Shown in pieces: positions 899-58,697 of a stretch of 64,000 bases of DNA (positions within the stretch are counted from its first letter, which is position 1; every line of letters starts with the position of its first letter). The translations under genes were made by a program, and so were the position numbers. The stretch spans positions 25,298,001 to 25,362,000 of the forward strand of contig CM075988.1 of NCBI GenBank assembly GCA_038087875.1, read 5' to 3'. Source of the DNA: Malacoraja senta (Eukaryota). Under the pieces are notes generated by a model that was given only the letters and a program-made list of their open reading frames with translations, did no database searches and was not told the DNA's origin.

Positions 899-1015
899 CG
901 AACTGGTGAGAAGTCCATCCAGGAATGGATTATCACGGGCAAGTGCCACAATCACCTTGCTTTTCTCTCCAGCCCAATGAACAACCAATTGACCGTGCGA
1001 ATCATTGAGGTTCAC
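899..1015 (-). CDS. SORL1: SORL1-family receptor, coding exon 2 (start of VPS10 domain)
   Basis: Not in the ORF track; read manually. ctgcag|GTG...TCG|gtaggt, 117 nt, phase 0/0, [39 protein letters not shown], matching recalled human SORL1 [39 protein letters not shown]. Joins exon 1 in frame. Ortholog versus paralog unresolved. Confidence 0.93.
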
Positions 1016-2636
1016 CTGCAGTTTTAAAAAAAATGCAGTAGAATTAGTACCGATCAATCATTCACAGTTGAAAATAGTTCCAGCACGACGCCATTAAAAA
1101 TAGATCCAGCAAAATCTAGAAGATACACAATTGTCCAGAAAAGAACAAATCTATTTGGCATAAAACACAAAGCCCTAGAGTAACTCAGCGGGTCAGGCAG
1201 CATCCGTGGAGGATATAATGTTTCTGGTCAGGATCCTTCTTCATATCTATTTGGGCCTACTTGTCTACATTATTTATGCATCATATTGTGTTCTTCCCAC
1301 TCTATATCTAACCTCATTAATGCCTCTAATGCTTTCACTTTCAAGTGTCTATCCAGCCTCACCTCAAGTACGTCTAGATTTGTCACCTCAACTATCCCTT
1401 GCAGTAATGAGCTTCAAATTCTAATTAATTTCAAAGTAAGTCTCAGAATGTCAACCTTGATTTATTTGTGGCCATTTTCTTTTAAATACCAGTCTTTGAT
1501 TGACCTTCAAACGATGACTAATCAAACTTTGTCACTATAGCCAAGTACGTCAGATCATCCCTCAGTCTTATCTTTTCCAGAGAACATATTCTCCTGCCTG
1601 TTCATACTTTCTTTCTTAATTCTGGTAACATCCTAGTGAATCACTTTTTTCTCCACTTATATATCTTTTTTAATTAAGGAGACCGTCACTTCACAGTATA
1701 TCAAGCATGGTCTAATTTATTCGACACAATTCATATTTCTTTGCTTTGCAGTTTTCTCAAACGACTTATTCGCCAATAACATGACCTTAATCTTCTGCAA
1801 AATGCATCCTTCCCTGCAAAATGCACTTTGATGCAACACATTCATTTAAGATAGTAGGATATTACACAGATGGTCTGCAGAAAAGCAAATCATAATCATA
1901 CTTGGCTAATAAATTATGTTTTGCAACAAACGAGGAATTTGGCTTGCCATATAGTCATACCGAAAAAGCAACAAGACACACAACTACTTAACAAATTGAC
2001 ATAAACATCCACCACAGTGGCCCCTCCACATTCCCCAATGTGATGGAAGGCAATAAAGTCTTATCTTCTTTCCCCCTTTTCTCCCGCAATCGGGGGAGTC
2101 GAACCATCTGCAGTCGGGGCGATTGAAACTGCCGCAGCCGGAGATCAAAGCTCCCGACAGTAACTATTTTTATAAAATGTATTTTTTCCGGGCGTGGGAG
2201 TGTCACTGGCTGAAGCAATTCCCATCACATTTAAGTATCCACTCTACAAACAGATACAAAAAAAGATCTTCCCATTCACCAATTTTAACCCTTCAACAAA
2301 AAGGGGTAATAATTCAAGGATGTGCAGCTAATTTGAACATCTGCAACAGGCACTATGTTTGGAAAAGATGTTCTGTACTCACAATAATACTCTTCTAATG
2401 GCACCTGTTATACGCATGATTTTTTTTGGCAATTGTTGCCAGTAACAAAAACTTTTACGCTTTGTTTTCTGCATTATTTAGGATGAAAAATTCTAAAGAT
2501 ACGAGATTAACAAAGTATCACTACAGAACTACGATCAGAACTTTGCACACATTTTTTCATCATGGTTTCAAACCATTTGAACAGTCATCAACTGCTGAGA
2601 CCCCATCACTTTGAACCAGAAACATACAGCCTAGAT

Positions 2637-2996
2637 CAGGGGTGGGGAACCTGCGCATGCGGCCTTCTAGGCCATTAAGTGCGGCCTTTTGAATTAATCC
2701 AAATTTTGTCGAACAAATCTTTTTATTATTATTAATATGTTTTTGTTCATCTTTTATTATTTTTATTTTAATCTTAAAATGAACGTATTTAAAATACCAA
2801 AGAGTAAAAGCAGATTCAACTAAATAATCCTCCCCGACTGACGGCCACAATTAAAACATTAGTAAGTCATGAGGGCCATTTTAACAAAATAATGTACATT
2901 TTGAAGTATATCTAATTGAAGATTCTTGGATGCGGCCTTATTAGATTACAGCTAACTTAATGCGGCATTCCACCATGAAAAGGTTCCCCACCCCTG
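2637..2996. mobile_element. hAT (Charlie-like) MITE, 360 bp
   Basis: Perfect 16 bp TIR CAGGGGTGGGGAACCT; perfect 8 bp TSD GCCTAGAT (2629-2636, 2997-3004). Confidence 0.92.
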
Positions 2997-3091
2997 GCCT
3001 AGATCAATAAAGGGGTCAGCAGAGAAAGGGGGGGAAGAAATTAGGTTTGTAACCCTATTTATTCGATTATTCCTGTGTCATCGCTTTTAGA

Positions 3092-11334: not shown

Positions 11335-11534
11335 NNNNNNNNNNNNNNNNNNNNNNNNNNNNNNNNNNNNNNNNNNNNNNNNNNNNNNNNNNNNNNNNNN
11401 NNNNNNNNNNNNNNNNNNNNNNNNNNNNNNNNNNNNNNNNNNNNNNNNNNNNNNNNNNNNNNNNNNNNNNNNNNNNNNNNNNNNNNNNNNNNNNNNNNNN
11501 NNNNNNNNNNNNNNNNNNNNNNNNNNNNNNNNNN
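11335..11534. other. Assembly gap (200 N)
   Basis: Run of N; CCTTGA occurs on both sides. Confidence 1.
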
Positions 11535-22745: not shown

Positions 22746-25336
22746 GTCAGTGACTCGAAGAGGTAGGGAAGTGTGAAAATAGTATTTAGGAATCATAGAT
22801 TAGCTTTTAGAGCTTCAACAAGAAGATTAAGACTGATCTCAACCAGTGGAAGGCAAAGATGAATTACATAGCTCAGAGGAACAGGGCAAGAGAGTGTGAC
22901 CAATGTGACAGAGATTATAGAGCAGGAAATAGAGTGGGAAGATGACATTGCAAACTGTGTAGAATTATTTAAGTGAAGTCCTTTATTTGAATAAAAGTTT
23001 TAAACAATAACAAATATCAAAGGAATGTGCATATTTTGAAATAACATTTGAATGATACAAATGTTCTTTTATCCCGAAACAGAACACATTTTATTAGAAC
23101 ATAAACATCAACATTACACTCTGATCAACCTCATCAAAACATATACAAAGTATTTATTAACATTAGGTTTTGGTAAAATAGAAATAGCTATCCAGACCCT
23201 GAGCTTAATCACAAACATTAACTTCTTGCTGCACTTATTTCTGGTTTCAAAATAATAAGGCAACAGGAAATGACTGATACCATATGGTGTTGAATTGAAA
23301 TGGGTTTTAATATCTCAGAGTTTTTGTTTAATGCATTTAATCGGCCTCAGGGTGTCAAAGGCAAAGCCAGCATTTATTCCCACCATCTAATTGCACTTGA
23401 GCTATCTCCTCAAACCGTGATTGTCCTTATGAAAGTACGCCGGTGGTGCTGTTGGAGAGGGAGATTCAGGATTTAGAATCAGCAAAATTATATTTTCATA
23501 TCAGGATGAATCTGAGGTGAATCTGCAAGTGGTGATGTTCCCACACGCCTGCTGCCCTTCTGTCAGAGTAGGGGACCTGGGTTTGGGAGGTACTCTTAGA
23601 AAAGCCTCGGTGAGTAACTGCAACATGCAAATCTTTCAAATGTCACATAGTCACAAATGGTAAGGAATTAGCATTTGGTGCAGGTGATGGGACTAATTCA
23701 TTGCCCAGGAAATGAACAACCCCATACTTCTGACCTTTTAATGGTAAATCAATCATTGATGAAGCAGTTGAAGATGTTTGGGCCTAAGGCAAGCTCAACA
23801 TTTAATATGTAACATAAGCAATGAAATCAAAGGTAGAAAATAAAGAAGGGTAACTGTATATTCTATATCAGACAGTTGTTGGTCTACAAGCACAGTGTCT
23901 TTCACTTCAGAAGAGTGCACAATAACCCAATACTATGCTACAAATAAGTCACTTTTGATCTGAAAATTCTATTATCTATTGATTGCAAATTTAACCATTT
24001 TATTTCTAGCAAGTGCAGAACTTCAATTTAGAGATCTGCCCCGGTCTTGATCCTAACAATTTTAACTATGAGAATTTCTCTTCCAGAGAGTTGACAGCTT
24101 GGTTTACTTGTACAGAATGGGCCTTAATATTCCACGCATCTTATACAGAGGTGTTAAGAAACTGACACAGTACAAAAATAAAACTGTTGCGAAATCTAAA
24201 CCATTTTTTTTAAAAAATAATTTCCTTTGCCATCCCTATTCTTCAAAATTACATGTACATTTTTTTAATATATATTCCACTGCAGTCGTTTTTTTGTTTT
24301 TTTAAAGGAAGTGTTGAAGTTTTATCAACCATGACAGGAAATTTATTGCACTCGTTAAGGGCACCATTGCATTGACAATACTCTAAATTTGCTTCTAAAC
24401 ATTTTTATTGTGCAATCATCAGAACAAAACAGGAGAATACGTTAGCAAACAGGATTTTGAAGCACAAGTGTGGATGTTTTGACGAAGGGTCTCTGAGCTG
24501 ACATGTTAACTGTTTTTCCTTCCACATATGCTGCCTGACATGCTGATTATTTTCTGTATTTTCTAAACATTTCCAACATCCAGTTTTTATTTTCATGATA
24601 ATCATTGGACACGGCTTTGCTTAACTGCTTCATTTGAGCGCATGTCCAATCGTAGTTTCGCATAAAGTCTCCGGTACTAAAATAGCCTATTTGGCCCAAC
24701 TGATCATTGTGCCATAAACAAATGAGACTGCTGAAGATTTGTGCACAAGATTCAGGCGTCTGCAGTCTCTTGTGCCTTATCTGTCATAAACAATGTTTTG
24801 TTATCATGCTTTTATTTAGATCTGGTAACGCGCATCAACAGAGATTACAACCCTCCGGGGTTAAAAAGATTAGTTGTAGAAATATATCAATGTGGCTTTT
24901 AAAACAACACCTGCAGCAGACCTTTATGAGTATCAGACATTTCCCACTGCCTTAGATTTTGCTCATGTAACAACATATTTCATTTTGCAATCTGGATTTA
25001 TCTCCAATGTTCTCCTGGGAGGGGGCAATGTCTTTCACTGACGGGCTGTTTGTTCTGTATTAGACAGAGCAGGTTTGAAGAGGTTGCTAACAACAAATAA
25101 AAAAAAAGGCTGCAGCATGAGGTGTGATGATGAAAAGAGGCAATACTCTGTATTATGATCAGGTCAAACAAGAGAGCCCGCAGCAGCCGTCTGTAGTCAC
25201 TCAGTAACTTCCGCGTGCAATTGGAGTTCATTATTTACAGAAACATAAATTTGCAGCAATTGTTTTTGACAGCAGTGTAAGTTATGAAGCGATGTGAAGT
25301 GACCAGAGGGTGAGGGGGGTGAGTGAGTGTCTGTAC

Positions 25337-25591
25337 CTGTCCCGTAAGGTCCACAAGATGCGGACTGTCGATGCTCCTGCGCCACCGATGCTGGTCCCTC
25401 TGGAGCGGCCCTTCCTCCGACAAACCAGCCGCCAAAGTCATCATCCCCCTGGCGTCCTGCGGGTCGGCCGCCAGTCCCTGGTCAACGTGCAGAGTCTGCG
25501 GCTTGAAGTAGGGCCGTCGAGCCGCGGCCAGGAGCAGCAGGGTATGCAGGAGGATCAAGCCCCAGCAGACGCCCGCACCGCCACCCGCCAT
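25337..25591 (-). CDS. SORL1: SORL1-family receptor, coding exon 1 (signal peptide, propeptide, furin site)
   Basis: AAGATGG start; hydrophobic signal peptide (WGLILLHTLLLLAAA); furin-type RWRR|S; ends ...DLTGQ at CAG|gtacag in phase 0 (human: RRKRS...KVYGQ|VSLND). 85 codons, in a CpG island. Confidence 0.9.
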
Positions 25592-25840
25592 CTTAGCCTG
25601 CGTTCTGTGTACAGTCAGCGGTGGATAGTATATGTCGGCGGGTGTATTTCTCAGCGCCTGCCCGCCCCTTTAATTGCGTGACGCCAGGGGCGGGGCGGGG
25701 CGTGGGCGCCGCTCCAAGATGATCCAGCGGTCGTGCGCGTCCCCGCGTGCGTGCGTGCGTTCTCGCGCCCGATTGAGCGCGCGCCGGTTCCAACGGTCGT
25801 GGGGGGTGGGTAGGGGGTTGGTGCGCCTGCGCGACGATCA
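25592..25840 (-). promoter_or_regulatory. CpG-island promoter / 5'UTR of the SORL1-like gene
   Basis: CpG-dense stretch directly upstream of the ATG, with tandem GC boxes (GGGGCGGGGCGGGG ~25687-25700), a CRE-like GTGACG (~25678) and an NRF1-like TGCGCCTGCGC (25822-25832). Confidence 0.75.
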
Positions 25841-25917
25841 GTTGTCCATCACAAGCACATTCACTCAACATTGCTCTCAAGTTTCTGGTGAGTTTCGTTG
25901 TCTGTCCAACTGCATTA

Positions 25918-26119
25918 TTGTGTGTGTGTATATATATGTATGTATGTATGTATACACATGTGTGTGTATATATATTTGTGTATATGTATATGTTATGTGT
26001 GTGTGTGTATATATATATATGTGTGTGTGTGTGGGTATATATGTGGGTATGCATATATATATGTAATACATATATTACATATGTATGTGTATATATATAT
26101 GTGTGTATATATATATGTA

Positions 26120-26150
<31 letters not shown>

Positions 26151-26185
26151 GTATGTATATATATGTGTGTGTGTGTATATATATA

Positions 26186-26216
<31 letters not shown>

Positions 26217-26583
26217 GTGTATATATATGTGTATATATATATGTGTATATATATATGTGTATATATATATATGTATATGTATGTGTGTATATATATATGT
26301 GTATATATGTATGTGTGTATATATATATGTGTATATATATATGTGTGTATATATATATGTATATATGTGTATATATATATGTGTGTATATATATATGTAT
26401 GTGTGTGTATATATATATATCTGTACGTATATATGTGTGTGTATATATATATATGTGTGTATATATATATATGTGTGTGTATATATATATATGTGTGTAT
26501 ATATATATATGTGTGTGTATATATATATGTGTGTGTATATATATATGTGTGTGTATATATATATATATGTGTGTGTGTATATA

Positions 26584-26640
<57 letters not shown>

Positions 26641-26683
26641 ATATATGTGTGTGTGTGTGCATATATGTGTGTGTAAGTATATA
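25918..26683. repeat. Expanded compound (TA)n/(TG)n microsatellite, ~770 bp
   Basis: Directly visible; source of the YI/VC/HT low-complexity ORFs. Same repeat type resumes at 31389-31482 and 32524-32620. Confidence 0.97.
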
Positions 26684-28299
26684 CAGTGGCTTGCAAAAGT
26701 ATTCATACCCCTTGAACTTTTCCACATTTTGTCACGTTACAACCACAAACGTAAATGTATTTTATTGGGATTTTATGTGATAGACCAACACAAAGTGGCG
26801 CATAATTGTGAAGTGGAAGGAAAATGATACATGGTTTTCAAATTTTTTTACAAATAAAAACTGAAAAGTGTCGCGTGCAAAAGTATTCAGCCCCCCTGAG
26901 TCAATACTTTGTAGAACCACCTTTCGCTGCAATTACAGCTGCAAGTCTTTTGGGGTATGTCTCTACCAGCTTTGCACGTCTAGAGACTGAAATGTTTGCC
27001 CATTCTTCTTTGCAAAATAGCTCAAGCTCAGTCAGATTGGATGGAGAGCGTCTGTGAACAGCAATTTTCAAGTCTTGCCAGAGATTCTCAATTGGATTTA
27101 GGTCTGGACTTTGACTGGGCCATTCTAACACATGAATATACTTTGATCTAAACCATTCCATTGTAGCTCTGGCTGTATGTTTAGGGTCAATGTCCTGCTG
27201 GAAGGTGAACCTCCGCCCCAGTCTCAAGTCTTTTGCAGACTCTAACAGGTTTTCTTCCAAGATTGCCCTGTATTTGGCTCCATCCATCTTCCCATCAACT
27301 CTGACCAGCTTCCCTGTCCCTGCTGAAGAAAAGCATCCCCACAGCATGATGCTGCCACCACCATGTTTCACAGTGGGGATGGTGTGTTCAGGGTGATGTG
27401 CAGTGTTAGGTTTCCGCCACACATAGCGTTTTGCATTTAGGCCAAAAACTTCAATTTTGGTCTCATCTGACCAGAGCACCTTCCTCCACATGTTTGCGGT
27501 GTCCCCCACATGGCTTGTGGCAAACTGCAAACGGGACTTCTTATGGCTTTTTTTCAACAATGGCTTTCTTCTTGCCACTCTTCCATAAAGGCCTGATTTG
27601 TGGAGTGCACGACTAATAGTTGTCCTGTGGACAGATTCTCCCACCTGAGCTGTGGATCTCTGCAGCTCCTCCAGAGTTACCATGGGCCTCTTGGCTGCTT
27701 CTCTGATCAATGCTCTCCTTGCCCGGCCTGTCAGTTTAGGTGGACGGCCATGTCTTGGTAGGTTTGCAGTTGTGCCATACTCTTTCCATTTTTGGATGAT
27801 GGATTGAACAGTGCTCCGTGTGATGTTCAAAGCTTGGGAATTTTTTTTATAACCTAACCCTGCTTTAAACTTCTCCACAACTTTATCCCTGACCTGTCTG
27901 GTGTGTTCCTTGGGCTTCATGATGCTGTTTGTTCACTAATGTTCTCTAACAAACCTCTGAGGCCTTCACAGAACAGCTGTATTTATACTGAGATTAGATT
28001 ACACACAAGTGGACTCTATTTACTAATTAGGTGACTTCTGAAGGCAAGTGGTTGCACTGGATTTTATTTAGGGGTATCAGAGTAAAGGGGGCTGAATACT
28101 TTTGCACGCCACACTTTTCAGTTTTTTATTTGTAAAAAAATTTGAAAACCATGTATCATTTCCCTTCCACTTCACAATTATGCGCCACTTTGTGTTGGTC
28201 TATCACATAAAATCCCAATAAAATACATTTACGTTTGTGGTTGTAACGTGACAAAATGTGGAAAAGTTCAAGGGGTATGAATACTTTTGCAAGCCACTG
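26684..28299 (-). mobile_element. Full-length Tc1/mariner DD34E transposon, IR/DR type, Passport-like
   Basis: TA|CAGTGGCTTGCAAAAG...CTTTTGCAAGCCACTG|TA; ~212 bp TIRs (26684-26895, 28087-28299) differing at only a few positions; each TIR carries two TGCAAAAGTATTCA direct repeats; 1616 bp. Confidence 0.97.
26901..27920 (-). CDS. Tc1 transposase, 339 aa, uninterrupted
   Basis: Paired-like HTH region, GRPP linker, WSDETK, QQD(I)DPKH, WPSQSPDLNPIE; 34 residues between the second D and E. Confidence 0.95.
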   Translation of the reverse strand: MKPKEHTRQVRDKVVEKFKAGLGYKKNSQALNITRSTVQSIIQKWKEYGTTANLPRHGRPPKLTGRARRALIREAAKRPMVTLEELQRSTAQVGESVHRTTISRALHKSGLYGRVARRKPLLKKSHKKSRLQFATSHVGDTANMWRKVLWSDETKIEVFGLNAKRYVWRKPNTAHHPEHTIPTVKHGGGSIMLWGCFSSAGTGKLVRVDGKMDGAKYRAILEENLLESAKDLRLGRRFTFQQDIDPKHTARATMEWFRSKYIHVLEWPSQSPDLNPIENLWQDLKIAVHRRSPSNLTELELFCKEEWANISVSRRAKLVETYPKRLAAVIAAKGGSTKY

Positions 28300-28301
28300 T
28301 A

Positions 28302-31300
28302 AACAATAATAAACAGAGAATAAGAGGTGGTGGGGTTCTTAAATGGGTGAGCAGAGAAACAGAGGGGTGTAAAATGCGGGCGGAAGCAATAGGTAGCAAG
28401 GTGAAAAGTAAAAGTGGCAGGCAGACAAATCCAGGGCAAAAATCAAAAAGGGCCACTTTTCAACATAATTGTATAAGGGGTAAGAGCGTTGTAAAAACAA
28501 GCCTGAAGGCTTTGTGTCTCAATGCAAGGAGCATTCGTAATAAGGTGGATGAGTTGAACTTGCAGATAGCAATTAATGATTATGATATAGTTGGGATCAC
28601 GGAGACATGGCTCCAGGGTGACCAAGGCTGGGAGCTGAACATCCAGAAATATTCAATATTCAGGAGGGATAGAGAGAAAGGAAAAGGAGGTGGGGTAGCG
28701 TTGCTGGTTAGAGAGGAGATTAACGCAGTGGAAAGGAAGGACATTAGCTTGGAGGATGTGGAATCGGTATGGGTAGAGCTGCGAAACACTAAGGGGCAGA
28801 AAACGCTGGTGGGTGTTGTGTACAGGTCACCTAGCAGTAGTAGTAAAGTTGGGGATGGCATCAAACAGGAAATTAGAAATGCGTGCAACAAAGGCAAAAC
28901 AGTTATAATGGGTGACTTCAATCTACATATAGATTGGGTGAATCAAATTGGCAGGGGTGCTGAGGAAGAGGATTTCTTGGAATGTATGCGGGATAGTTAT
29001 CTAAACCAACATGTAGAGGAACCAACGAGAGAGCAGGCTATTCTAGACTGGGTATTGAGTAATGAGGAAGGGTTAGTTAGCAGTCTTGTTGTGCGTGCCC
29101 CCTTGGGCAAGAGTGACCATAATATGGTTGAGTTCTTCATTAGGATGGATAGTGACATTGTTAATTTAAAAAAAAACAACGGTTCTGAACTTAAAGAAAG
29201 GTAACTTTGAGGGTATGAGACGTGAATTGGCCAAGATTGACTGGCAATTAGTTCTAAAAGGGTTGACGGTGGATATGCAATGGAAGGCATTTAAAGACTG
29301 CATGGATGAACTACAAAAATTGTTCATCCCACTTTGGCAAAAGAATAAATCAGGGAAGGTAGTGCATCCGTGGATAACAAGGGAAATCAGGGATAGTATC
29401 AAAGCAAAAGATGATGCGTAAAAATTAGCCAGAAAAAGCAGCATACCAGAGGACTGGGAGAAATTCAGAGACCAGCAGAGGAGGACAAAGGGCTTAATTA
29501 GGAAAGGGAAAATAGATTATGAAAGGAAACTGGCAGGGAACATAAAAACTGACTGCAAAAGTTTTTATAGATATGTGAAGAGAAAGAGATTAGTTAAAAC
29601 AAATGTAGGTCCCTTGCAGTCAGAAACAGGTGAATTGATCATGGGGAACAAGGATATGGCGGACCAATTGAATAACTACTTTGGTTCCGTCTTCACTAAG
29701 GAAGACATAAATAATCTGCCGGAAATAGCAGGGGGCTGCGGGTCAAAGGAGATAGAGGAACTGAGTGAAATCCAGGTTAGTCGGGAAGTGGTGTTGGGTA
29801 AATTGAATGGATTAAAGGCCGATAAATCACCAGGGCCAGATAGGCTGCATCCCAGAGTACTTAAGGAAGTAGCTCCAGAAATAGTGGATGCATTAGTGAT
29901 AATTTTTCAAAACTCTTTAGATTCTGGAGTAGTTCCTGAGGATTGGAGGGTAGCAAACGTAACCCCACTTTTTAAGAAGGGAGGGAGAGAGAAAATGGGG
30001 AATTACAGACCAGTTAGTCTAACATCGGTAGTGGGGAAACTGCTAGTCACTTATTAAAGATGGGATAGCAGCACATTTGGAAAGTGGTGAAATCATTGGA
30101 CAAAGTCAGCATGGATTTACGAAAGGTAAATCATGTCTGACGAATCTTATAGAATTTTTCGAGGATGTAACTAGTAGAGTGGATAGGGGAGAACCAGTGG
30201 ATGTGTTGTATCTGGACTTTCAGAAGGCTTTCGACAAGGTACCACATAAGAGATTAGTATACAAACTTAAAGCACACGGTATTGGGGGTTCAGTATTGAT
30301 GTGGATAGAGAACTGGCTGGCAAACAGGAAGCAAAGAGTAGGAGTAAACGGGTCCTTTTCACAATGGCAGGCAGTGACTAGTGGGGTACCGCAAGGCTCA
30401 GTGCTGGGACCCCAGCTATTTACAATTTATATTAATGAACTGGATGAGGGAATTGAAGGCAACATCTCCAAGTTTGCGGATGACACTAAGCTGGGGGGCA
30501 GTGTTAGCTGTGAGGAGGATGCTAGGAGACTGCAAGGTGACTTGGATAGGCTGGGTGAGTGGGCAAATGTTTGGCAGATGCAGTATAATGTGGATAAATG
30601 TGAGGTTATCCACTTTGGTGGCAAAAACAGGAAAGCAGACTATTATCTAAATGGTGGCCGATTAGGAAATGGGGAGATGCAGCGAGACCTGGGTGTCATG
30701 GTACACCAGTCATTGAAAGTAGGCATGCAGGTGCAGCAGGCAGTGAAGAAAGTGAATGGTATGTTAGCTTTCATAGCAAAAGGATTTGAGTATAGGAGCA
30801 GGGAGGTTCTACTGCAGTTGTACAGGGTCTTGGTGAGACCACACCTGGAGTATTGCGTACAGTTTTGGTCTCCAAATCTGAGGAAGGACATTATAGCCAT
30901 AGAGGGAGTGCAGAGAAGGTTCACCAGACTGATTCCTGGGATGTCAGGACTTTCATATGAAGAAAGACTGGATAGACTTGGCTTATACTCGCTAGAATTT
31001 AGGAGATTGAAACGTACAAAATTCTTATGGGGTTGGACAGGCTAGATGCAGGAAAATTGTTCCCGATGTTGGGGAAGTCCAGGACAAGGGGTCACAGCTT
31101 AAGGATAAGGGGGAAATCCTTTAAGACCGAGATGAGGAAAAACTTTTTCACACAGAGAGTGGTGAATCTCTGGAACTCTCTGCCACAGAGGGTAGTTGAG
31201 GCCAGTTCATTGGCTATATTTAAGAGGGAGTTAGATGTGGCCCTTGTGGCTAAGGGGATCAGGGGGTATGGAGAGAAGGCAGGTACGGGATACTGAGTTG

Positions 31301-37739: not shown

Positions 37740-38671
37740 TGTTTAAGAAAGAACTGCAGATGCTGGAAAAATCGAAGGTAGACAAAAATGCTGGAGAAAA
37801 TCAGCGGGTGAGGCAATATCTTCTCTCCATAGAAAATGGACACTCTCCGCCTCATTAAGGGCACTGAGGTGGAGGTGGTCGCTAACCACAGGTACCTTGG
37901 TGTGCAGCTTGACAGTGAGCTGGACTGGAAGTGTCATATGGAGGCGGTGTACAGGAAGGGACAAAGCCGACTGTATTTTTTAAGGAGGCTGAGGTCATTT
38001 AACATCTGCCAACCCCTACTGTGCAGTGTCTACCATTCAGTGGTGGCCAGTGCTCTGTTTTTTGCTGTGGCCTGTTGGGGAGATGGCGCCCGCATAGCGG
38101 ACAAAAACAGACTGGACAAGCTGATCAGGAAGGCCGGCTCAGTGGTCGGGGCTGAGCAACGAACGGTCCAGCAGGTGGCAGAGGCCAGAACTCTGAACAA
38201 ACTGGGTTCTATAATGACCAACCCCACTCACCCACTCCATGCCCTGAAGGTGATCAAGAGCAGCATCTTCAGTCAGAGACTGATTGCACCAATGTGCAAA
38301 ACTGAGAGACACAGGAAGTCCTGTTTACCAGCTGCTATAAGGTTATATAATGCGCATAAATAACTGTATTTTAATTGTTTTTTAACTTGTATTTTAACTT
38401 GTATATTAACTTGTTAAGTATGGAAGCTATTTGAGGAAATGTGTGGTGTTATGTCTGTCTTGAAGCTGTCGTGGCACTGTAATTTCCTGTAAAGGATTAT
38501 TAAAGGTATATCTTATCTTATCTTATCTTATCTCTTCCTTTCTTTTCCCACCGCCCCCCCCCCCCCACCCCCGACATCAGTCTGAAAAAGGGTCTCGACC
38601 CGAAACATCGCCTATTCCTTCTCTCCATAGATGCTGTCTCACCCGCTGAGTTTCTCCAGCATTTTTGTCTA
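37740..38671. mobile_element. Fold-back Penelope-type element interrupted by a Rex1/Babar fragment
   Basis: Arms at 37740-37833 and ~38535-38671; TSD CCTCTTATTCATA (37727-37739, 38672-38684); hammerhead-like motif at ~38578-38612. Confidence 0.7.
37834..38533 (+). mobile_element. Rex1/Babar-type LINE 3' fragment (C-terminal RT region and 3'UTR)
   Basis: YLGVQLDSELDW…QSRLYFLRRLRSF…SALFFAVACWG…PTHPLH…PAAIRLYN; (TCTTA)n tail. Confidence 0.8.
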
Positions 38672-38684
38672 CCTCTTATTCATA

Positions 38685-39761
38685 GAAACATAGAAAATAG
38701 GTGCAGGAGTAGTCCATTCGGCCCTTCGAGCCTGCACCGCCATTCAATATGATCATGGCTGATCATCCAACTCAGTATCCTGTACCTGCTTTCTCTCCAT
38801 ACCCCCTGATCCCTTTAGCCACAAGGGCCACATCTAACTCCCTCTTAAATATAGCCAATGAACTGGCCTCAACTACATTCTGTGGCAGAGAATTCCAGAG
38901 ATTCACCACTCTCTGTGTGAAAAATGTTTTCCTCATCTCGGTCCTAAAAGATTTCCCCCTTATCCTTAAACTGTGACCCCTTGTTCTGGACTTCCCCAAC
39001 ATCAGGAACAATCTTCCTGCATCTAGCCTGTCCAACCCCTTAAGAATTTTGTACGTTTCTATAAGATCCCCCCTCAATCTTCTAAATTCTAGCGAGTACA
39101 AGCCGAGTCTATCCAGTCTTTCTTCATATGAAAGTCCTGACATCCCAGGAATCAGTCTGGTGAACCTTCTCTGTACTCCCTCTATGGCAAGAATGTCTTT
39201 CCTCAGATTAGGAGACCAAAACGGTACGCAATACTCCAGGTGTGGTCTCACCAAGACCCTGTACAACTGCAGTAGAACCTCCCTGCTCCTATACTCAAAT
39301 CCTTTTGCTATGAATGCTAACATACCATTCGCCTTCTTCACTGCCTGCTGCACCTGCATGCCTACTTTTAATGACTGGTGTACCATGACACCCAGGTCTC
39401 GTTGCATCTCCCCTTTTCCTAATCGGCCACCATTCAGATAATAGTCTACTTTCCTGTTTTTGCCACCAAAGTGGATAACCTCACATTTATCCACATTATA
39501 CTGCATCTGCCATGCATTTGCCCACTCACCCAGCCTATCCAAGTCACCTTGCAGCCTCCGAGCATCCTCCTCACAGCTAACACTGCCCCCCAGCTTCGTG
39601 TCATCCGCAAACTTGGAGATGTTGCATTCAATTCCCTCGTCCAAATCATTAATATATATCGTAAATAGCTGGGGTCCCAGCACTGAGCCTTGCGGTACCC
39701 CACTAGTCACTGCCTGCCATTGTGAAAAGGACCCGTTTACTCCTACTCTTTGCTTCTTGTT
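38685..39761 (-). mobile_element. Young CR1 LINE 3' fragment (RT C-terminal half)
   Basis: Open frame from GVPQGSVLGP/FADD to GYGEKAGTGY*; nearly identical to 30325-31388. Confidence 0.93.
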
Positions 39762-42700
39762 GTTACTTCTTACTCCCTCAAGCATCATGTAGCACCACAT
39801 TTCTCACTCTTAAATTTCATTTGCCACTTAGCCAATTCCATTAGCCCGTTTATATTTCCTTTCTCCTCACAGTTTACATAATCTCCAAATTATGCTTCAT
39901 TTGCAAATTTGGAACTTCTGCTCTATGCACTCGTGTCCAAATCATTTTCACGTGTTAAGAAAAGCAATGGTGTTAATTTTGCCTATATATCTCTCAATAT
40001 TCTGAATACAATTCCTTTAACCCCTTTCAATGTATTAACAAGTGCCGTTAATTTTACCCAAATAACTGAGAAAATTATATATTGTCAACAAAACAGCACA
40101 GTAAATTAATCCTCACTTCCTTACAGTCTCAAATTTCTGGTGTTATTTAACTTTATTTTATGCATGTAAATATATATTCTTTTAATTAAGCAATAACATA
40201 AGAGGAATGAGCTGTCTTTGTAATATCTGTGATACAGTAACCAGGAAGAGAATTATAATATAAGTTAGTATTTGTTGTCTTTTCAATTTCCTTGATGATA
40301 GAACGGATAAGGAAACCACCTAGTATGTTGCCGAGCCTTTAAATCTCCTTGTTTTATCTCATGCATTGCCTTTGTTTATCAATGGGATCAGAAAATGTAG
40401 CATTAGAATTGATCTCAGCTAACATCAAATATTAACTAGAACATCTGAGTAAGGAAAGTTAATGGAATAATTTTGAGGGACAGTGTAAAACAGCATTTAT
40501 AAAAGCATGCATAAACCAACACTTGTCAGCAGAGATTTGTTAGAAGATTTCATTGAACCATGGTTGAACTGAATAATTCATGTCTATACCTTAAAAAGGG
40601 AAAGATGGAAAACATTTAGTAATTTTTTTAAGCAATTAATTTACGATGCTGTGTTTGTCATTCCAGTCTCTTTCAGTTGCATTCAGACCTTTACTTGTTC
40701 TACCAATGTAAAGGGTAGTTTGCTTGATGTTTATATGAATAACCGACACATAAAGCTGGTTGTGAAATATCTGACCCAACCGGTTAATTTCATTGTTGTG
40801 CAACTTCATTTCAACGCTTTGTTTTCTCAGATTCTATTTTCAGTCTTCAGAACCCTGAATGCATACTTGTTTCCAACATTATGGCACCCAACAACAATTT
40901 TGTTGTATTTTCATTGCCATACCTCAACGAGAGCAATTTACATTTCCAAATCTAAGTCCTTAATTTAGGCACTGTACAACTTATGGGTTTTTCTTCACAA
41001 TGTCTCTACCAAACTCCTCCTCCAAGCCTTTGTGCCAGACTTGCTGGCCTGAATCCATACCCCACCCCCATAATGAAATTCTCACTACAGGAATCCCCAA
41101 CTATACTTATCTGACTCAGAAGGCGTATCTGGCTGGTGCAAAACAATATGAGCACCAACATGACCCGAATGGCAGCCTGCCTACAGTGAAGTCCAGCCCC
41201 GAAAAACCCCTCAAAAGTGTTGACGGCAGACATATCCTCAGCTTTATTGACAGTCAAAGTTGTAAGGAATTTTATATTTTTTCTTACATATATCATATAT
41301 AAGAAAAAGTTAATTAAATGAAATCTGAAAACACCAAGATATAGTTAAATACATCAAACTAAACCAAAACTTTTAAGCAAATACTTTTTCCATCTTTGCT
41401 TCCTGATCAGCTGCCTTCCAATCCCCATTGACATCTATGGAAATTTGCATCCTGTTTCTGATCTAATTCTGCACAATTCTGTAGATATTGGGAATTTAAA
41501 AAAGACTGAGAAGAATAAAGAAGACTGATTTAAACCCAGTCTTAATGTATTTAATTGGGGAAATTCCAGTTTGGAGCCACGGGCATAAGCCAACAAGATC
41601 CAGCTCATAGTCCACTTTTGTGTTCTTCGCATTAACCATTCATTTGCGCAGAAAGTTCAAATTCTGCTACATAACTTATGAACTGGTCTGTCACTACATT
41701 ACAAACACAAATGCAACTGGCCTATTCCCCTTGACATGAATGGATGGGAACAGATGTCAGGTTGATCGTTTTAAATGTAAGAAAATGTGCTTTGGCGCTG
41801 ACTTCAAATTTGCACAATTTTCTTGAATATCAAGGGAGATGTTTAGACTACTAGATGGAGACAATCAGTGACTGGCTGCAATGGTGCAAATGTTTCTTGT
41901 TAGCAGACCAAACCTGAATGTTGTGTGGTTTTGGTCCATTGCATTGTTACTTAGATCAATCGAGCACAGAGACAGGTGCTTTGGTGCAATTTGTCCATGC
42001 CAACCAAATGGAGTTCTGATTGGGGCCATATGGCACATTCGTCAATGAAGATCCAGATTCCTTGCCATTTGGAGGAAGGCAAATCATTGATGCAGGTAAA
42101 AATGATTGGGCTTAAGATACTGCCATCATTGTTACTGTAATGTCCTGTAATTTGAACAATTGGCATCTTAACTACAGCTTTTTGTTGGGCATGATTCCAA
42201 TTAATTAAAAAAATCCTATGATTGTATTGACCAGTTTTATTATGGCTCCTAATGCTTCATTTACTCAAAGAATGCTTAAGCATTCTTGATATATGTTATT
42301 TGTGAGTAAATGCAACTTGTGGGGGCTTCTTTCAACATGTTTCCTTACTTTGCTTAATATTGATAGCATAGTCAGAGTGTAATGGGACTGGTTGGATTGT
42401 TCACTTGCTGTGGTCAATTTGCCATTGTGAAGAATTTTGGGAGGTCATGAGAAAGGTGTTTTTTATATTGAAGTTATTTTTGCTTTAGTCCATATAAACC
42501 TGTGTTAAATTGATGTGTTAATGAAATTCTATTATGCTTTTTACACAATTTTACAATATTATTCCAGCACACACAAGCAATGTGGCATAGTTTGACTTTG
42601 TAGGACAATGAACAGGTTAACCTCAAAGTCATTCAAGATTAATAACAGAGGCAGGTTACATTTCATTTTGCTAATATGCTCTGACACTAATTAAAATGTA

Positions 42701-44096: not shown

Positions 44097-44741
44097 TAGA
44101 CAATAGACAATGGGTGCAGGAGTTGGCCATTTGGCCCTTCGAGCCAGCACCGCCATTCATTGCGATCATGGCTGATCATCCACAGTCAGTACCCGGTTCC
44201 TGCCTTTTCCCCATATGCCCTGACTCCGCTATCTTTAAGAGCTCTATCCAACCCTCCCTTGGAAGCATACAGAGAATTGGCCTCCACTGCCTTCTGAGGC
44301 AGAAAATTCCACATATTCACAACCCTCTGTGTGAAAAAGTTTTTTCTCATCTCAGTTCTAAATTGCTTTCCCCTTATTCGTAAACTGTGGCCCCTGGTTC
44401 TGGACTCCCCCAACATCAGGAACAGGTTTCCTGAGTCTACCGTGTCCAAACCCTTAATAATCTTATATGTTTCAATAAGATGCCCTCTCATCCTTCTAAA
44501 TTCCAGAGTATACAAGCCCAGCCGCTCCATTCTATCAACATATGACAGTCCCGCCATCCTGGGAATTAACCTCATGAACCTACGCTGCACTCCCTCAATA
44601 GCAAGAATGTTCTTCCTCAAATTTGGAGGCCAAAACTGCACACAATACTCCAGGTGTGGTCTCACTAGGGCCCTGTTCAACTGCAGAAGGACCTCGTTGC
44701 TCTTATATTCAACTCCTCTTGTTATGAAGGCCAACATGCCA
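44097..44741 (-). mobile_element. CR1 3' fragment
   Basis: GMLAFI…RPHLEYCVQFW…YGEKAGTGY* plus tail. Confidence 0.88.
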
Positions 44742-45652
44742 GTCTTTGACAAGTGGAATAAGGCATCATTGCCAAGGGCAAATGCTAAACAGAAACAAAG
44801 GGAAAATAATAACTTCCCAAACTCAGTTCTCAGGCAGGTGAATTAGCATAATGTGCGTGTAATGATGGTATCTGTATGTGCAGTTCTTTTGCAACAGCAT
44901 TATAACATACTTGGATAAACGGTGAAGTGGGTTTGAGGTTGCAATTGATAAATTCTGTATCACAGATAGCAGCACAGTATTTCACCATCTGTTGATCCAA
45001 ACTTTGTCATTGTTGCCTGATAAATGTAATAGTGCCTGAAAATATAATTGGTTGCAAATTTGCAACCAATTGTTTGTTACATTATTTCTTTCTTGCAGCA
45101 TAGCACCTCTGAAAATCACCCAGGTTATTTGTCTGTCAGAAGGATCGGTGTTTAGTGCATTGATCTTCCTGACAATCTTAAAACTTAGCTGCTTTAAAAA
45201 TTAAAATCGCCACATACTGGTGGTCCGCCATTTACTCAATGTCTGTTGTTATGAAGGAACACTGTTACACAGCATGGTGGTCAGACTCACAAAAAAACAC
45301 ACAGCATACCACATCGACATTCTCTCTGAGAAAATAAAATCAGGCAGATACTTAGTGCAGGCCTGAAGAAGCCATATTGCAGGCAGATTTTGATGGCTTT
45401 GTTAAAAATGTATTTTTTGTTAACAAGGAGAGAAACAAAAACCATGGATTTTTTGATTACTTTCTATAGGGAATTGGGAAGTAATAGGGAGAGTGAGAAC
45501 TATTTTGTACCACTATCTTGAAGTACCTCTCCAAGGGCATTATAAGTATGACAATAGGACTTGGTCAGCTTACTTAATCAATAATAACATTTTGAGATAA
45601 CAATATTAAGGCAACATGATCGTTATTAATAATCTGTCTATTAATGAGTTAG

Positions 45653-52716: not shown

Positions 52717-53392
52717 CTACACTTCAACACGATACATTGCAGTGTTTCTTCTTTGTCGCTGCCAAGACCACAGGTGGTAGGTTAATATTAGAATTGTATA
52801 AAATAAAAATAATGTCAGTGAACTGTAGAGAATATAATCTTTTTCTGACAACTGCTGCTGATGGGCCCATGCACCTTCAATCTCTGTGAAGAGTGTCTCA
52901 ATTAAACCCACAAGGAGAATAATGCCCCAAACTAAGAGAGGAAAAAGTGGGATGTAGTTCTTGACTCTCTCTCTGCGTCCAGATGTTCCCCAGCCAGTAT
53001 TGGTAATGGTAACAAGAGAAAAGCATTTGATGGGCAGTAACCCACACAGGTAGAAGGTTGGAAACAGGGATAGGTAGATCATCAGTGGACATCTCTTTAG
53101 AGAAGAGGCGTTGATCGCTTTAATGAGTCCAAAGCCATGGAGGCATAGGAGCATCCAAAGAATGTCCCAGAGACACCCGTAGTAGAATAGCTTAATGAGA
53201 GACACGGAAATGTAGAATGGCAAAATCCCCATAGTTACTGCTTCATATGTCATCCACAGACTATGCTTGTGCCAGAAGCGGGAACTGTAGACCCATTCTA
53301 TGATAGATGACTTAGTCCAACGTATTTGTTGATTGAGCCAGCGGATATATTGAGCTGGAGTTTCTGTATAGCACCAAGCCTTGGGCATGTAT
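52717..53392 (-). CDS. HAS1: HAS1-like last coding exon (QxxRW, WGTSGR, C-terminal TMs)
   Basis: actcag|A TAC ATG...; ETP, RWLNQQIRW, WGTSGRR; C-terminus YRVEV* resembles HAS1 YRVQV. Exons sum to 699+226+133+676=1734 nt = 577 aa plus stop, with no frameshift. Confidence 0.93.
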
Positions 53393-54065: not shown

Positions 54066-54198
54066 TTGGTGGAATAGCCCAGACTGAGTACCCTGTTAGT
54101 TAAATGACGATCATCCCCAAATGTGCACCGGATTCCTAGGAATCTCTGATTGTACCAGGGCTCCAATAATTGTTGGATCAAATTATTCCTGTACATCC
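54066..54198 (-). CDS. HAS1: HAS1-like coding exon 3 (GDD catalytic motif)
   Basis: Not in the ORF track. tttcag|GG...AA|gtaag, 133 nt; [45 protein letters not shown]. Confidence 0.93.
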
Positions 54199-54720: not shown

Positions 54721-54946
54721 CTAAAGGTCCACTGATGCAGGAGACACAATTAAAATAAGACTGGCAAGCTCGTCCTAAATTGAACACAGTCCAATAATGC
54801 AGGCTGCTGATGAAGCTAATGAATGAATCATTGACATTGAGAATTCGCACTTCACCTCCGACTGCTCCACAGCTTTCATTTGAATCCAAAACTTTAACCA
54901 GTTCTCCAGTTGCTTGCGAGTCAAGTTTTGTATCAGAATCACAGAC
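54721..54946 (-). CDS. HAS1: HAS1-like coding exon 2 (DxD motif)
   Basis: ttttag|GTC...TTAG|gtaagg, 226 nt; [37 protein letters not shown]...[17 protein letters not shown]. Confidence 0.93.
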
Positions 54947-55739: not shown

Positions 55740-56850
55740 CAGAAGAGCATGTCATTTTATATGTCTTTTTTTCTTTTTTTTTTTCTTTTTACAAAACCGA
55801 ATCTGAACTGAGAAATTCAACAATTTAAGTCTGTTTGTCGTCAAGTCCGTTCCACCCTATGAAGGTAAAATAATTTTTATAACGGTTAAAGAGGGAACAA
55901 TTTATGTTGTATAAATTTTCCCCAAGTCTTATCAAATTTAACCAAGGGTTCAACAATGTCACTTCTGATTTTTTCTAAATTTAAACACAATATCGTTTCT
56001 GAATACCACTGGATTGTGGTCGGAGGGTTGGAATCTTTCCATTTAAATAAAATAAATCTGGCAATTAATGTGGTAAAAGCAATCAACTGATGGGCGGAGC
56101 AGGACAAATGAATAGAATCTAACATTGGTAACCCAAAAATTGCAGTAATAGGATGAGGTTGTAAATCTATACCTAAGACTACTGAAATAGTATCAAAAAT
56201 TTCTTTCCAATATTTTTCCAAAAGAGGGCAGGACCAAAACATATGGGTCAGTGATGCCACTTCAGAGTTACATCTATCACAGGTAGGATTTATATGACCA
56301 TAAAAACGAGCTCTTATCTTTTGACATATGAGCTCTGTGAACCACCTTGAATTGTATCAAAGCGTGTCTTGCACACATTGAAGAGGTATTAACTAATTGA
56401 AGAATCCTCTCCCATTTCTCTATAGATAAAGAAATTTGGAGTTCTTTTTCCCAGTCATTCTTAATTTTTATCAAATGTACCTATTTGTAATTTCAATATC
56501 AACTCATAAATAATAGTTATTAATCCTTTCTGATAAGGGTTCAACTGTAAATTGTTTTCCAAAATTTCGGGTTGATGTGGTAGCGGAAAAAGGGGTAGGG
56601 TAGCCTTAAAAAAATGTCTAATTTGTAAATATCTAAAAAAGTGTGAATTAGGTAAGTTATATTTATTGGAGAGGTGTTCGAAAGACATAAAACAACCCTC
56701 CAAAAACAAATCACGAAAATCTACTAATCCCTTCCACTTCCATAACAAAAAAACTTGATCAGTACTAGATGGTCGGAAGAGAAAATTGGATAAAATAGGA
56801 CTCGATAAGATAAAATCATTTAGTCCAAAAAACTTATATGTCTTGAGAAC
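55740..56850 (-). mobile_element. L1/Tx1-clade LINE 3' fragment in a HAS1-like intron, nested in a Penelope-type remnant
   Basis: YNLPNSHFFRYLQIRHF, WEKEL, QFKVVHRAH, C-DR-C…SLTHMFWSC (CCHC knuckle), ILFKWK…PPT; frameshifted; A-rich 3' region. Confidence 0.85.
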
Positions 56851-57998
56851 AGATGCGATGGAGACAGAGAAAATAAGAAAAAGGGTCAAAGTCTGACAAA
56901 GTACTGGATTGGATGAGACATAGTCAAGGGAACTGTGAGAGTGGATTTATAGTATCCTGGATGGTGGAGCTCTAGATTCCAGCATCTGCAGTCTCTGTGT
57001 CTCCAGTAAAATTAACTTCATCTGAGCAGTAGTCAGCGCATATGCAGAAGTATATTAAGCATTGAAGTATTAAGCATTGCAGGTTAAATGGCTATGCCTG
57101 CTGTATCAGTATACCCATATAATTACAACGCCATATCTAGGTTATACGAGTAGATGAGAAGCTACATTCTAAACATCTGTAATGAATATACTTTATAATG
57201 ACCAAGCAGAACCACAATCAAGATGTAAAGAATACTGGAACTGGGCCAAGGTGTTGCATGATATATCAATAACAATTACATACTTTCTGTAGTAGTTATG
57301 ACAGTGCAAGACCAATCAAAAGCCAGAATGCAAACTCGGCTCTGCTATAGGGTCCTTCACAGGTGAGAATGAAACTTTGCATCTAATATGATTAAAGAAT
57401 CATACTACATTTAAACATCGAGGCTTCATAGAGAAAAATCAGCTGGATTGTTTTGATGAAAACTATGCCAAAACGACATTTTCATCTGCCTTATTTCCCA
57501 TAAGACCCATGGTTGTAATTGGGCAGCTTTTCACTTGACAATGTGGCATAGATTCTCAAGACAATTTTTAATTGGGCCTGTAATGTCCCAGAAGCTGTTT
57601 ACTTATATTAAACTGCTAAAGGAGGCCACCACTTTCCAAGAGACTAGGATGGGCACTAAATCACCATGTTCCTCTAATTACAAAATAGGATGGTTCTGTA
57701 AAATTAAAATAGAAATTGCAGCTATGTCAAGCTGCATCCGTGGTGAAAAAATCTTTATTATTTCAGGTCAGATCAGAATCATTTACAGATGATGGTTCAA
57801 TATTCTCTTAAGTAACAACCACTAGGGAGTTATCAAGGAATGAAAAGGAATAATGAGTCATGTGGGTCAGATGGAAACTTTCTTCAGCTTCCAGTTGCAG
57901 AATTTCAGAAGATACTGCATTTTTGTTTGATACCCAGGATAGATTTATATCAATGAAAGGGCAAAATCTAAGAAAACAGTTAATTGCATTGGTCATAC

Positions 57999-58697
57999 CT
58001 GAATGTAATCCACCGAATCGCCAATAGCTTTGAAGGCTGTGTACAACACTTCTCTCTTTCCTCCCTTTTTCTGCATGATGCAAATGCAACGCTTTGTGTG
58101 GATTAGCGACTCCACCTCCAGTCTTTCTGGATTTCCGATACATGCCTCCCCATAAAACAGATTGACAGGATTTCTTTGTGAACTTTTGCTGTTATCGTCC
58201 TCCTTATTCCACACAATTCTATTAAAATTTCTCGAATGATAGTTTCCCTCCCATAAAAATGTTCCGATATCTTCCTCGCAGAAAATCTCCTTGAATATGT
58301 CCATCATGTATTGATCTTCTTTTGAGTTCCCATCAATCACCATGACAATTTTCAACTTTTGGATAGGGTACTGAATGCTCTTCACAGAATTGAGGCACTG
58401 TGCTAGATATGAAGGATCCTCTTGATAAGCTGATATGGTTATCGCCACAGACTTAGTGTTGCAGCATGGTGGAATAATATTTTTCATCTTGTACTGCTCA
58501 ACCAGAGCAAAGATTGTTTGCAAGAAGAAGTGTCCAATGACCAGGGTTCCGTAAATACCAAGCAAAATTAATTTTTCCGCGATTAGGAGTTGAAATCCTG
58601 CGACATATGCCCAAGACATACCAAAAAATAACATCATGGCAAAGCCTATGGTATAAATTTTATGAGCTATTGAAACCAAAGTGTCTTTGTTAATCAT
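57999..58697 (-). CDS. HAS1: Hyaluronan synthase 1-like, first coding exon (TM1-2, N-terminal GT2 domain)
   Basis: GCCATGA start; motifs ISAYQED, MVIDG, GGKRE, YTAFKA.GDSVDYIQ; donor CAG|gtatga; 699 nt. Has the HAS1-type long loop after WEGNYH. Confidence 0.92.

What the first reader, a model, noticed from the sequence alone, without database searches (positions are those of the whole stretch)
899..58697. SORL1-family gene directly next to a HAS1-type gene: candidate SORL1 ohnolog (or extra HAS paralog) not present in mammals
Seen: a SORL-family gene and a HAS1-type gene in tandem on the minus strand, about 27 kb apart, with no other host gene recognised between them. Established: human SORL1 (11q24, beside SC5D, near the miR-100/let-7a-2/miR-125b-1 cluster) and HAS1 (19q13.41, beside miR-99b/let-7e/miR-125a) lie on paralogous segments from the vertebrate genome duplications (compare APLP2/APLP1), and mammals have one SORL1. 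The exon 1/2 peptide differs from the recalled SORL1 sequence at well-conserved spots (VDLTGQ vs IKVYGQ, SHGQL vs SHNQM, KSKV vs KSNV). Inference: either a second SORL gene kept on the HAS1 segment, or true SORL1 beside a retained extra HAS copy. Either would be a lineage-retained ohnolog.
Basis: partly seen in the sequence, partly recalled or inferred. Interest (0 to 1): 0.75.

Follow-up and report, generated by a model that had tools for sequence, protein, structure and literature searches.

The report
Skate SORL1 beside divergent HAS1-like gene
In this skate the sorting-receptor gene is most likely the ordinary SORL1, and the unusual gene is its neighbour, a fast-changing hyaluronan synthase that probably descends from a different genome-duplication copy than the HAS1 of bony vertebrates.

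Summary
The two genes are real: SORL exons 1 and 2 and an intact four-exon, 577-aa HAS1-type gene, in tandem on the minus strand, 27.1 kb apart. The window is from a skate (HAS 95% identical to little skate has1-like). A second SORL is not supported. Little skate has1-like lies on a 26,912,430-bp contig, the exact length of chromosome Leri_32C, which carries the only gene I saw named Sorl1 (1.86 Mb) among 11q23-25-type genes. Exon 2 differs from mammalian SORL1 no more than paddlefish SORL1 does (24 of 28 each). The odd gene is the HAS. Gar HAS1 and SORL1 lie on different contigs, and teleost HAS1 shares the human chr19 neighbourhood, so the shark/skate gene sits on the paralogous chromosome. 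Best reading: a 2R paralog of HAS1 kept in cartilaginous fishes (hidden paralogy). Trees cannot separate this from a moved ortholog. It keeps the catalytic residues but changes 29 of 198 near-invariant columns, including the channel arginine (Xenopus R287) that controls polymer length. No skate SORL1 sequence or genome was available for a direct test.

The parts
899..1015 (-). SORL1 coding exon 2 (start of the VPS10 domain), 39 codons, phase 0
   Evidence: covered with no listed difference in runs X1 and X2, 4 and 2 differences in X3 and X6
11335..11534 (.). 200-N assembly gap inside SORL1 intron 1
25337..25591 (-). SORL1 coding exon 1: signal peptide, propeptide, RWRR furin-type site, phase-0 donor
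   Evidence: similarity to orthologs is weak, assignment by anatomy
25001..26000 (.). CpG-rich region over the SORL1 promoter and exon 1
   Evidence: CpG o/e 0.61 and 1.1 in two 500-bp windows
26684..28299 (-). Full-length Tc1-type DNA transposon: about 190-nt inverted repeats, TA on both sides, open 339-aa DD34E transposase; 1.1 kb upstream of the SORL1 ATG
28281..31045 (+). LINE (endonuclease and reverse transcriptase in three frames; CR1-like by recalled resemblance)
52717..53392 (-). HAS1-like last coding exon (QxxRW, WGTSGR gating loop, TM3-6, stop)
54066..54198 (-). HAS1-like coding exon 3 (GDDR motif)
54721..54946 (-). HAS1-like coding exon 2 (DxD motif, interface helix 1 with H283 in place of Xenopus R287)
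57999..58697 (-). HAS1-like coding exon 1 (TM1-2, start of the GT2 domain)

Best explanation
The SORL gene is the skate ortholog of SORL1, a VPS10-domain sorting receptor made with a signal peptide and a furin-cleaved propeptide (function from established knowledge), on the chromosome that corresponds to human 11q23-25. The HAS gene belongs to a chondrichthyan-wide HAS1-group lineage on that same chromosome, whereas bony-vertebrate HAS1 lies with the paralogous chr19-type segment. The simplest history is that a proto-HAS1 lay on this ancestral linkage group before the vertebrate genome duplications; cartilaginous fishes kept the 11q-type copy and bony vertebrates the 19q-type copy. The enzyme is probably still an active membrane-embedded processive synthase using UDP-GlcNAc and UDP-GlcA, but with a relaxed translocation channel, most likely giving slower turnover and shorter or more polydisperse hyaluronan. 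Shown here: gene models, HAS1-group membership, chromosome match in little skate, residue changes. Inferred: SORL1 orthology (about 0.85), ohnology (about 0.7 given that), altered product length (about 0.5).
For: Window HAS is 95% identical to Leucoraja has1-like P0180 and sister to it at 100/100. P0180's contig is 26,912,430 bp, the end coordinate of Leri_32C in the skate paper's SI Table 8. Sorl1 has its HiChIP bait at Leri_32C 1.86-1.87 Mb. In 33 of 154 Leri_32C rows of SI Table 10 read in file order, 18 of 20 distinct named genes other than Sorl1 bear names of human 11q23-25 genes (human positions recalled); nearest are Kmt2a-2 1.25, Ube4a 1.30 and Phldb1-1 1.48 Mb. That annotation suffixes duplicated names (Sort1-1 and Sort1-2 on different chromosomes, Has2-1/-2, Nectin1-4) but 'Sorl1' has no suffix in its 3 occurrences. 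Exon 2 core identity to a mammal is 24 of 28 for the window and 24 of 28 for paddlefish SORL1. Gar HAS1 is on an 11,987,765-bp contig and gar SORL1 on a 16,198,172-bp contig (same annotation inferred from accession series). PMC3384580 states that the teleost Aa let-7 locus shares SMG9 and HAS1 with the human chr19 locus, and that the chr11, chr19 and chr21 clusters come from 2R. The second bony HAS1-type copies are tandem with HAS1: four sturgeon pairs have consecutive accessions on shared contigs. K218, D242, Y288, F292, R296, C307, D342, R343, R381, W382, S385, K448, W491, T493 and R496 of Xenopus HAS1 are all kept; R287 is H, F414 and M472 are L, G547 is S. R287A cuts turnover to about 15% and gives short oligosaccharides, R287K gives polydisperse product (PMC11750622).
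Against: No skate or shark SORL1 sequence was retrieved, so orthology is indirect. The position of has1-like on Leri_32C is unknown ('has1' has 0 occurrences in the stored, cut file). The HAS1-group base is unresolved; AU tests reject neither 'all bony copies together' (p 0.455) nor 'shark with canonical HAS1' (p 0.459). Gene order on Leri_32C is shuffled against human (Grik4 11.64, Clmp 12.60, Hspa8 7.17, Sorl1 1.86 Mb), so the HAS-SORL1 contact itself need not be ancestral and I could not place miR-100. No bony vertebrate with an 11q-type HAS and no shark with both copies was found. Xenopus has1 could not be used, as I recall its chr7 carrying both kinds of segment. No mammalian HAS1 was in the trees. 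No RNA or activity evidence exists here.
Confidence: 0.6

Rival explanations
1. True SORL1 next to the true HAS1 ortholog: one HAS1 gene survived 2R and moved between chromosomes in the chondrichthyan or the bony stem, then evolved fast in sharks and rays.
For: One HAS1-type gene per chondrichthyan species in 13 species. The AU test does not reject shark plus canonical HAS1 as one clade (p 0.459). The skate paper reports heavy gene-order disruption between cartilaginous and bony fishes.
Against: The move would have to join two chromosomes that are 2R paralogs of each other, a few among about 40. Chromosome-level gene content is otherwise well conserved on Leri_32C (18 of 20 names).
Confidence: 0.24
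2. One reading: the SORL gene is a second SORL (ohnolog or old duplicate), with canonical SORL1 elsewhere in the genome.
For: Exon 1 is barely alignable to bony SORL1 exon 1. The HGQL variant of exon 2 occurs in none of the vertebrate-type hits among 56 representatives. Skate Sorl1 is not between Grik4 and Clmp as in human. Skates do keep a second sortilin, Sort1-1 and Sort1-2.
Against: The chromosome is 11q-type and carries the one unsuffixed Sorl1. Paddlefish SORL1 is equally divergent in exon 2. No separate representative at 50% clustering matched exon 2 better than 86% or below E 1e-10, as a very divergent annotated paralog would. Six name searches for a second SORL1 found none relevant among 9 listed papers.
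Confidence: 0.1
3. The adjacency or the SORL model is an assembly artefact (mis-join at the gap, or exon 1 belonging to another secreted-protein gene).
For: A 200-N gap separates the two SORL exons; no listed contig bridges it; exon 1 similarity is weak.
Against: Exon 1 length (85 aa against 88 in gar), furin site, phase-0 junction and CpG-rich promoter fit SORL1. Little skate independently has both genes on one chromosome.
Confidence: 0.04

Closest known systems
Vertebrate SORL1 (SORLA/LR11; human PDB 3wsx, 7vt0; gar XP_069038470)
   Same: Exon 2 peptide 23-24 of 28 identical in the core; exon 1 layout (signal peptide, furin site, phase-0 junction); 11q23-25-type chromosome in little skate.
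   Different: HGQL for HNQM in exon 2, a divergent propeptide, and a HAS gene rather than SC5D upstream (human neighbour recalled). Only 124 of about 2,200 residues are in the window.
RefSeq 'hyaluronan synthase 1-like' of chondrichthyans (Amblyraja XP_032905412, Leucoraja XP_055516537, Callorhinchus XP_042199765)
   Same: Same gene: 93-95% to three skates, 75% to Heptranchias, 58% to Callorhinchus; one clade at 100/99. It is already annotated in public genomes.
   Different: The annotation does not say it is a paralog of HAS1; I found no paper on its position or divergence in ten searches.
Bony-vertebrate HAS1 (Xenopus HAS1/DG42, PDB 8smm; gar, zebrafish, coelacanth, turtle HAS1)
   Same: HAS1-group clade at 100/99 against HAS2/3; catalytic and gating-loop residues kept.
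   Different: Only 51-53% identical, while bony HAS1s are 65-73% alike and elephant-shark HAS2 is 87% to mammalian HAS2. 29 of 198 near-invariant columns changed against 0-2 in canonical HAS1/HAS2. Different chromosome relative to SORL1 in gar.
Tandem second HAS1-type copies of sturgeons, amphibians and lizards (has-rs-like; name recalled)
   Same: HAS1-group members with raised rates (2-11 conserved columns changed).
   Different: They share a contig with HAS1, keep the R287 equivalent and do not group with the shark clade with support.
Differentially retained ohnologs in chondrichthyans (68 cases reported in PMC10115646, e.g. wnt6b, cspg5)
   Same: Same kind of history as the best reading.
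   Different: HAS1 is not named in the section read or in the stored supplement; the list of 68 was not in the sheets I could see.

Membership tests
SORL1 ortholog | VPS10 N-terminal exon closer to SORL1 than to sortilin or SorCS | tested here: met
   SORL1 chains at E 4e-10, SorCS2 at 0.15, no sortilin up to E 1
SORL1 ortholog | Lies on the 11q23-25-type chromosome | tested here: met
   Indirect, through little skate: has1-like contig length equals Leri_32C, which carries Sorl1 and 18 of 20 11q-type names
SORL1 ortholog | Only SORL locus in the genome | tested here: inconclusive
   No genome held; unsuffixed 'Sorl1' in a cut supplement is suggestive only
SORL1 ortholog | Full architecture (VPS10, YWTD, LDLa, FN3, TM, tail) and nesting with SORL1 in a tree | not testable with these tools
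   Only exons 1-2 are in the window; no shark SORL1 sequence retrieved
SORL ohnolog on a 19q13-type segment | 19q13-type neighbours and chromosome | tested here: not met
   Neighbours of Sorl1 on Leri_32C are Kmt2a-2, Ube4a, Phldb1-1, Nectin1-4, Bcl9l
Class I vertebrate hyaluronan synthase | DxD, GDDR, QxxRW, WGTSGR motifs and acceptor-site residues | tested here: met
Class I vertebrate hyaluronan synthase | Both channel-entry arginines (Xenopus R287, R296) | tested here: not met
   R296 kept; R287 is H in the window and non-R in 10 of 13 chondrichthyan sequences, R in 152 of 154 others
Class I vertebrate hyaluronan synthase | Makes hyaluronan | not testable with these tools
   Needs an enzyme assay
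HAS1 group (against HAS2/HAS3) | Clade with HAS1-type proteins | tested here: met
   31 of 37 rows at 100/99, amphioxus as outgroup
HAS1 ortholog (19q13-type) | On the chromosome of miR-99b/let-7e/miR-125a and SMG9, not that of SORL1 | tested here: not met
   On the SORL1 chromosome in skate; gar HAS1 and SORL1 on different contigs
2R ohnolog of HAS1 | Divergence before the shark/bony split shown by a tree or by a species with both copies | tested here: inconclusive
   AU p 0.455 and 0.459; no species with both copies among the 120 listed of 574 hits

The most novel reading that the evidence does not exclude
The gene is a fourth vertebrate hyaluronan synthase lineage, a 2R sister of HAS1 that survives only in cartilaginous fishes, and its retuned channel (loss of the R287 equivalent, R388, F414, M472 and, in rays, the G547 hinge) makes short hyaluronan as its normal product. 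The HAS-SORL1 tandem would then be a relic of a pre-duplication block HAS, SORL, miR-125/let-7/miR-100, of which human chr11 kept SORL1 and chr19 kept HAS1.
Probability: 0.3. Interest if true: 0.6.

Novelty: new member of a known kind. Interest (0 to 1): 0.36.

Why it matters
If the best reading holds, 'shark has1' and bony-vertebrate HAS1 are paralogs, so comparisons of hyaluronan synthesis in cartilaginous-fish skeleton and development that treat them as one gene are misled. The enzyme is also a natural variant at residues that cryo-EM and mutagenesis tie to polymer length, which makes it a ready test of how chain length is set. It removes the need for a second SORL1, which would have been the more surprising claim. 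Differential ohnolog retention in sharks is a known pattern, which caps the surprise.

Tried and rejected
No whole genome was held, so SORL loci could not be counted. The exon 2 homolog search covered only proteins up to 2,000 aa and so excluded full-length SORL1; 0 of 6 candidates passed, which is uninformative. The exon 1 read-through ORF is not in the protein collection. The ESM Atlas gave only small secreted-precursor look-alikes below 0.9 for exon 1. No RNA holder was listed for the HAS stretch. No listed contig bridged the N gap; repeats swamped the output. No miR-100/99, let-7 or miR-125 match lies in the window; the 26 matches at E up to 0.5 are all below gathering score, and most fall in simple repeats. 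The absence of a second shark HAS1 is weak: 120 of 574 hits were listed, and two sequences of the query alignment (Callorhinchus, Erpetoichthys) and all mammalian HAS1 fell outside the list. Gene ids in the skate supplement are grouped by chromosome but not ordered, so they gave no neighbours; a coordinate phrase search found nothing. The whale shark supplements had no hit in 12 of 24 files searched; the catshark supplement could not be read. Earlier scan findings: three look-ups empty, one gave 8 unrelated microbial loci. Rejected: exon divergence as proof of paralogy (paddlefish control); the amphibian, lizard and sturgeon second copies as the shark gene's orthologs (tandem with HAS1, no supported grouping); a pseudogene (intact frame here and full-length models in 13 species).
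Full report
Observation. The window holds the first two coding exons of a SORL-family gene and a complete HAS gene, both on the minus strand, HAS upstream. Exon 2 (1015-899) matches human SORL1 chains at E 4e-10. Exon 1 (25591-25337) has a hydrophobic N-terminus, an RWRR site, a phase-0 donor and a CpG-rich promoter, but its similarity to SORL1 exon 1 is marginal (3, 41 and 45 of 500 shuffles reached the scores). A 200-N gap lies in the intron between them. The HAS exons splice with AG/GT ends to 577 aa without a stop. The genes are 27,125 bp apart. Between them I found transposons only; 0 of 69 further ORFs reached a Pfam cut-off (two of the 87 ORFs listed had been scanned and were left out, and 16 lie beyond HAS). 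Short exons could be missed.

Organism. The HAS is 95% identical to Leucoraja and Amblyraja has1-like and 93% to Rhinoraja, so this is a skate. No genome was held, so the comparison ran through protein records and a published supplement.

Which chromosome. The Leucoraja ortholog P0180 comes from a 26,912,430-bp contig. In the little skate genome paper (PMC10115646; I searched supplementary file 2, which is cut in storage, and read main-text passages and one section) the last bin of Leri_32C ends at 26,912,430. Sorl1 has its promoter bait at Leri_32C 1.86-1.87 Mb. In 33 of the 154 stored Leri_32C rows of SI Table 10, read in file order, 20 distinct named genes other than Sorl1 appear, plus six unnamed ones; 18 bear names of human 11q23-25 genes (positions recalled), the exceptions being Ilvbl and Ppp2r1a-2. 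Targeted searches added Arhgef12, Cadm1, Clmp, Grik4, Gramd1b and Nectin1-4. The annotation suffixes repeated names (Sort1-1 on Leri_19C, Sort1-2 on Leri_24C), and Sorl1 carries no suffix. This is the chromosome of true SORL1. Against a neat picture, gene order is shuffled relative to human, as the paper says is general, so I cannot say that miR-100 lies next to skate Sorl1, and has1-like itself is not in the tables.

Is the SORL too divergent? No. Over the 28-residue core the window matches a mammalian SORL1 at 24, and so does paddlefish SORL1, which shares the SKV change. HGQL is peculiar to the window among the vertebrate-type hits but is kept in two other organisms' runs: X3 shows 4 differences in the exon (3 silent, one K to R) and X6 shows 2. 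No skate or shark SORL1 was retrieved, so orthology remains indirect. I put a second SORL at about 0.1.

The HAS is the odd gene. It falls in a chondrichthyan clade (100/99) inside the HAS1 group (100/99) (37 rows; 72 rows, quick tree). Gar HAS1 and gar SORL1 lie on contigs of 11,987,765 and 16,198,172 bp. PMC3384580 (passages and part of one section) reports that the teleost Aa let-7 cluster shares SMG9 and HAS1 with the human chr19 cluster, and that the chr19, chr21 and chr11 clusters are 2R products; PMC3581078 (passages) puts human HAS1 at 19q13.4. So bony HAS1 is on the chr19-type segment and the skate gene is on the paralogous 11q-type chromosome. Second HAS1-type copies in sturgeons, amphibians and lizards share contigs with HAS1, with consecutive accessions in four sturgeon pairs, so they are tandem duplicates and a separate matter. 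One HAS1-type gene per species was seen in 13 chondrichthyans; none further among 120 listed of 574 hits, a weak negative because even two query sequences and mammalian HAS1 fell outside the list, and GC-rich shark regions assemble poorly (PMC10620051, passages). The tree base is unresolved and both AU tests are uninformative (p 0.455, 0.459). Reciprocal retention of ohnologs is therefore an inference from synteny; a moved ortholog stays at about 0.24. From recalled human coordinates, HAS1 and SORL1 each point towards the miR-125 end of their cluster, so HAS-SORL in tandem is the order an ancestral block would have; I could not test this.

How it works. Mapped through the alignment to PDB 8smm, every active-site and gating-loop residue tested in Xenopus HAS1 (PMC11750622; passages and two parts of the text) is present. 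The channel is not conserved: R287 is H, F414 and M472 of the hydrophobic ring are L, the G547 hinge is S, and R388 is I. Overall 29 of 198 columns that are at least 97% conserved in 154 other HAS proteins are changed, against 20 in Heptranchias, 24 in Callorhinchus, 0-2 in canonical HAS1 and HAS2, and 2-11 in tandem copies. R287 is not fixed in the clade: it is R in 3 of 13 sequences, H in 7, C in 2 and S in 1, which looks like relaxed constraint more than a selected switch. In Xenopus, R287A lowers turnover to about 15% with short products and R287K loses length control. My most likely mechanism is an active but less processive synthase making shorter hyaluronan (about 0.5); normal product or near inactivity share the rest. 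The Hypanus model lacks W382 and R496, hinting at decay in some rays or a model error. The two genes have separate promoters by anatomy; nothing suggests a shared function.

Known versus new. The gene is already in RefSeq as 'hyaluronan synthase 1-like', and differential ohnolog retention is established (68 cases in PMC10115646). Ten full-text searches (listings only unless named above) showed no paper on a second SORL1, on HAS next to SORL1, or on the paralogy of shark has1. Subscription papers are not covered. Supplements I could not see may list it: the catshark file, 12 of 24 whale shark files, file 1 and the cut part of file 2 of the skate paper, and those of the miRNA preprint 10.1101/2021.09.01.458616 (passages only). 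PMC7144542 (passages) was not relevant.

Verdict. Observation confirmed; SORL ohnolog not supported; probable hidden HAS1 paralogy with an altered channel. Interest 0.36.

Noticed in passing
window 26684-28299: Full-length Tc1 transposon with 96% complementary inverted repeats, TA flanks and an open DD34E transposase, 1.1 kb upstream of the SORL1 start codon and abutting a long TA/CA microsatellite (about 25920-26680); it looks young.
   Followed up: partly
P0003 (Hypanus sabinus has1-like): Aligned positions of the essential W382 and R496 read S and Y: a dying copy in this stingray or a gene-model error.
   Followed up: no
little skate Leri_19C 10.7 Mb and Leri_24C 32.3 Mb (PMC10115646 supplement): Two sortilin genes, Sort1-1 and Sort1-2, on different chromosomes: a likely retained VPS10-family ohnolog, unlike Sorl1.
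   Followed up: no
P0012/P0254, P0262/P0075, P0038/P0103/P0271, P0016/P0097: HAS1-type genes occur as tandem pairs or triplets in sturgeons, tailed frog, caecilian, newts and lizards, pointing to an old local duplication in bony vertebrates.
   Followed up: partly
window 59380-59520: Small CpG-rich patch about 0.7 kb upstream of the HAS start codon, a candidate promoter or non-coding first exon (seen; below the 500-bp threshold).
   Followed up: no
window 28281-31045, 37833-38363, 38772-39803, 44186-44842, 55886-56946: LINE remnants make up the long ORFs between and within the genes; RT or endonuclease domains confirmed for the first three, the last two assigned by resemblance only.
   Followed up: partly
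little skate SI Table 5: LE03338, LE03089: Two unnamed genes with the Chitin_synth_2 Pfam domain are differentially expressed, probably chitin synthases rather than HAS.
   Followed up: no
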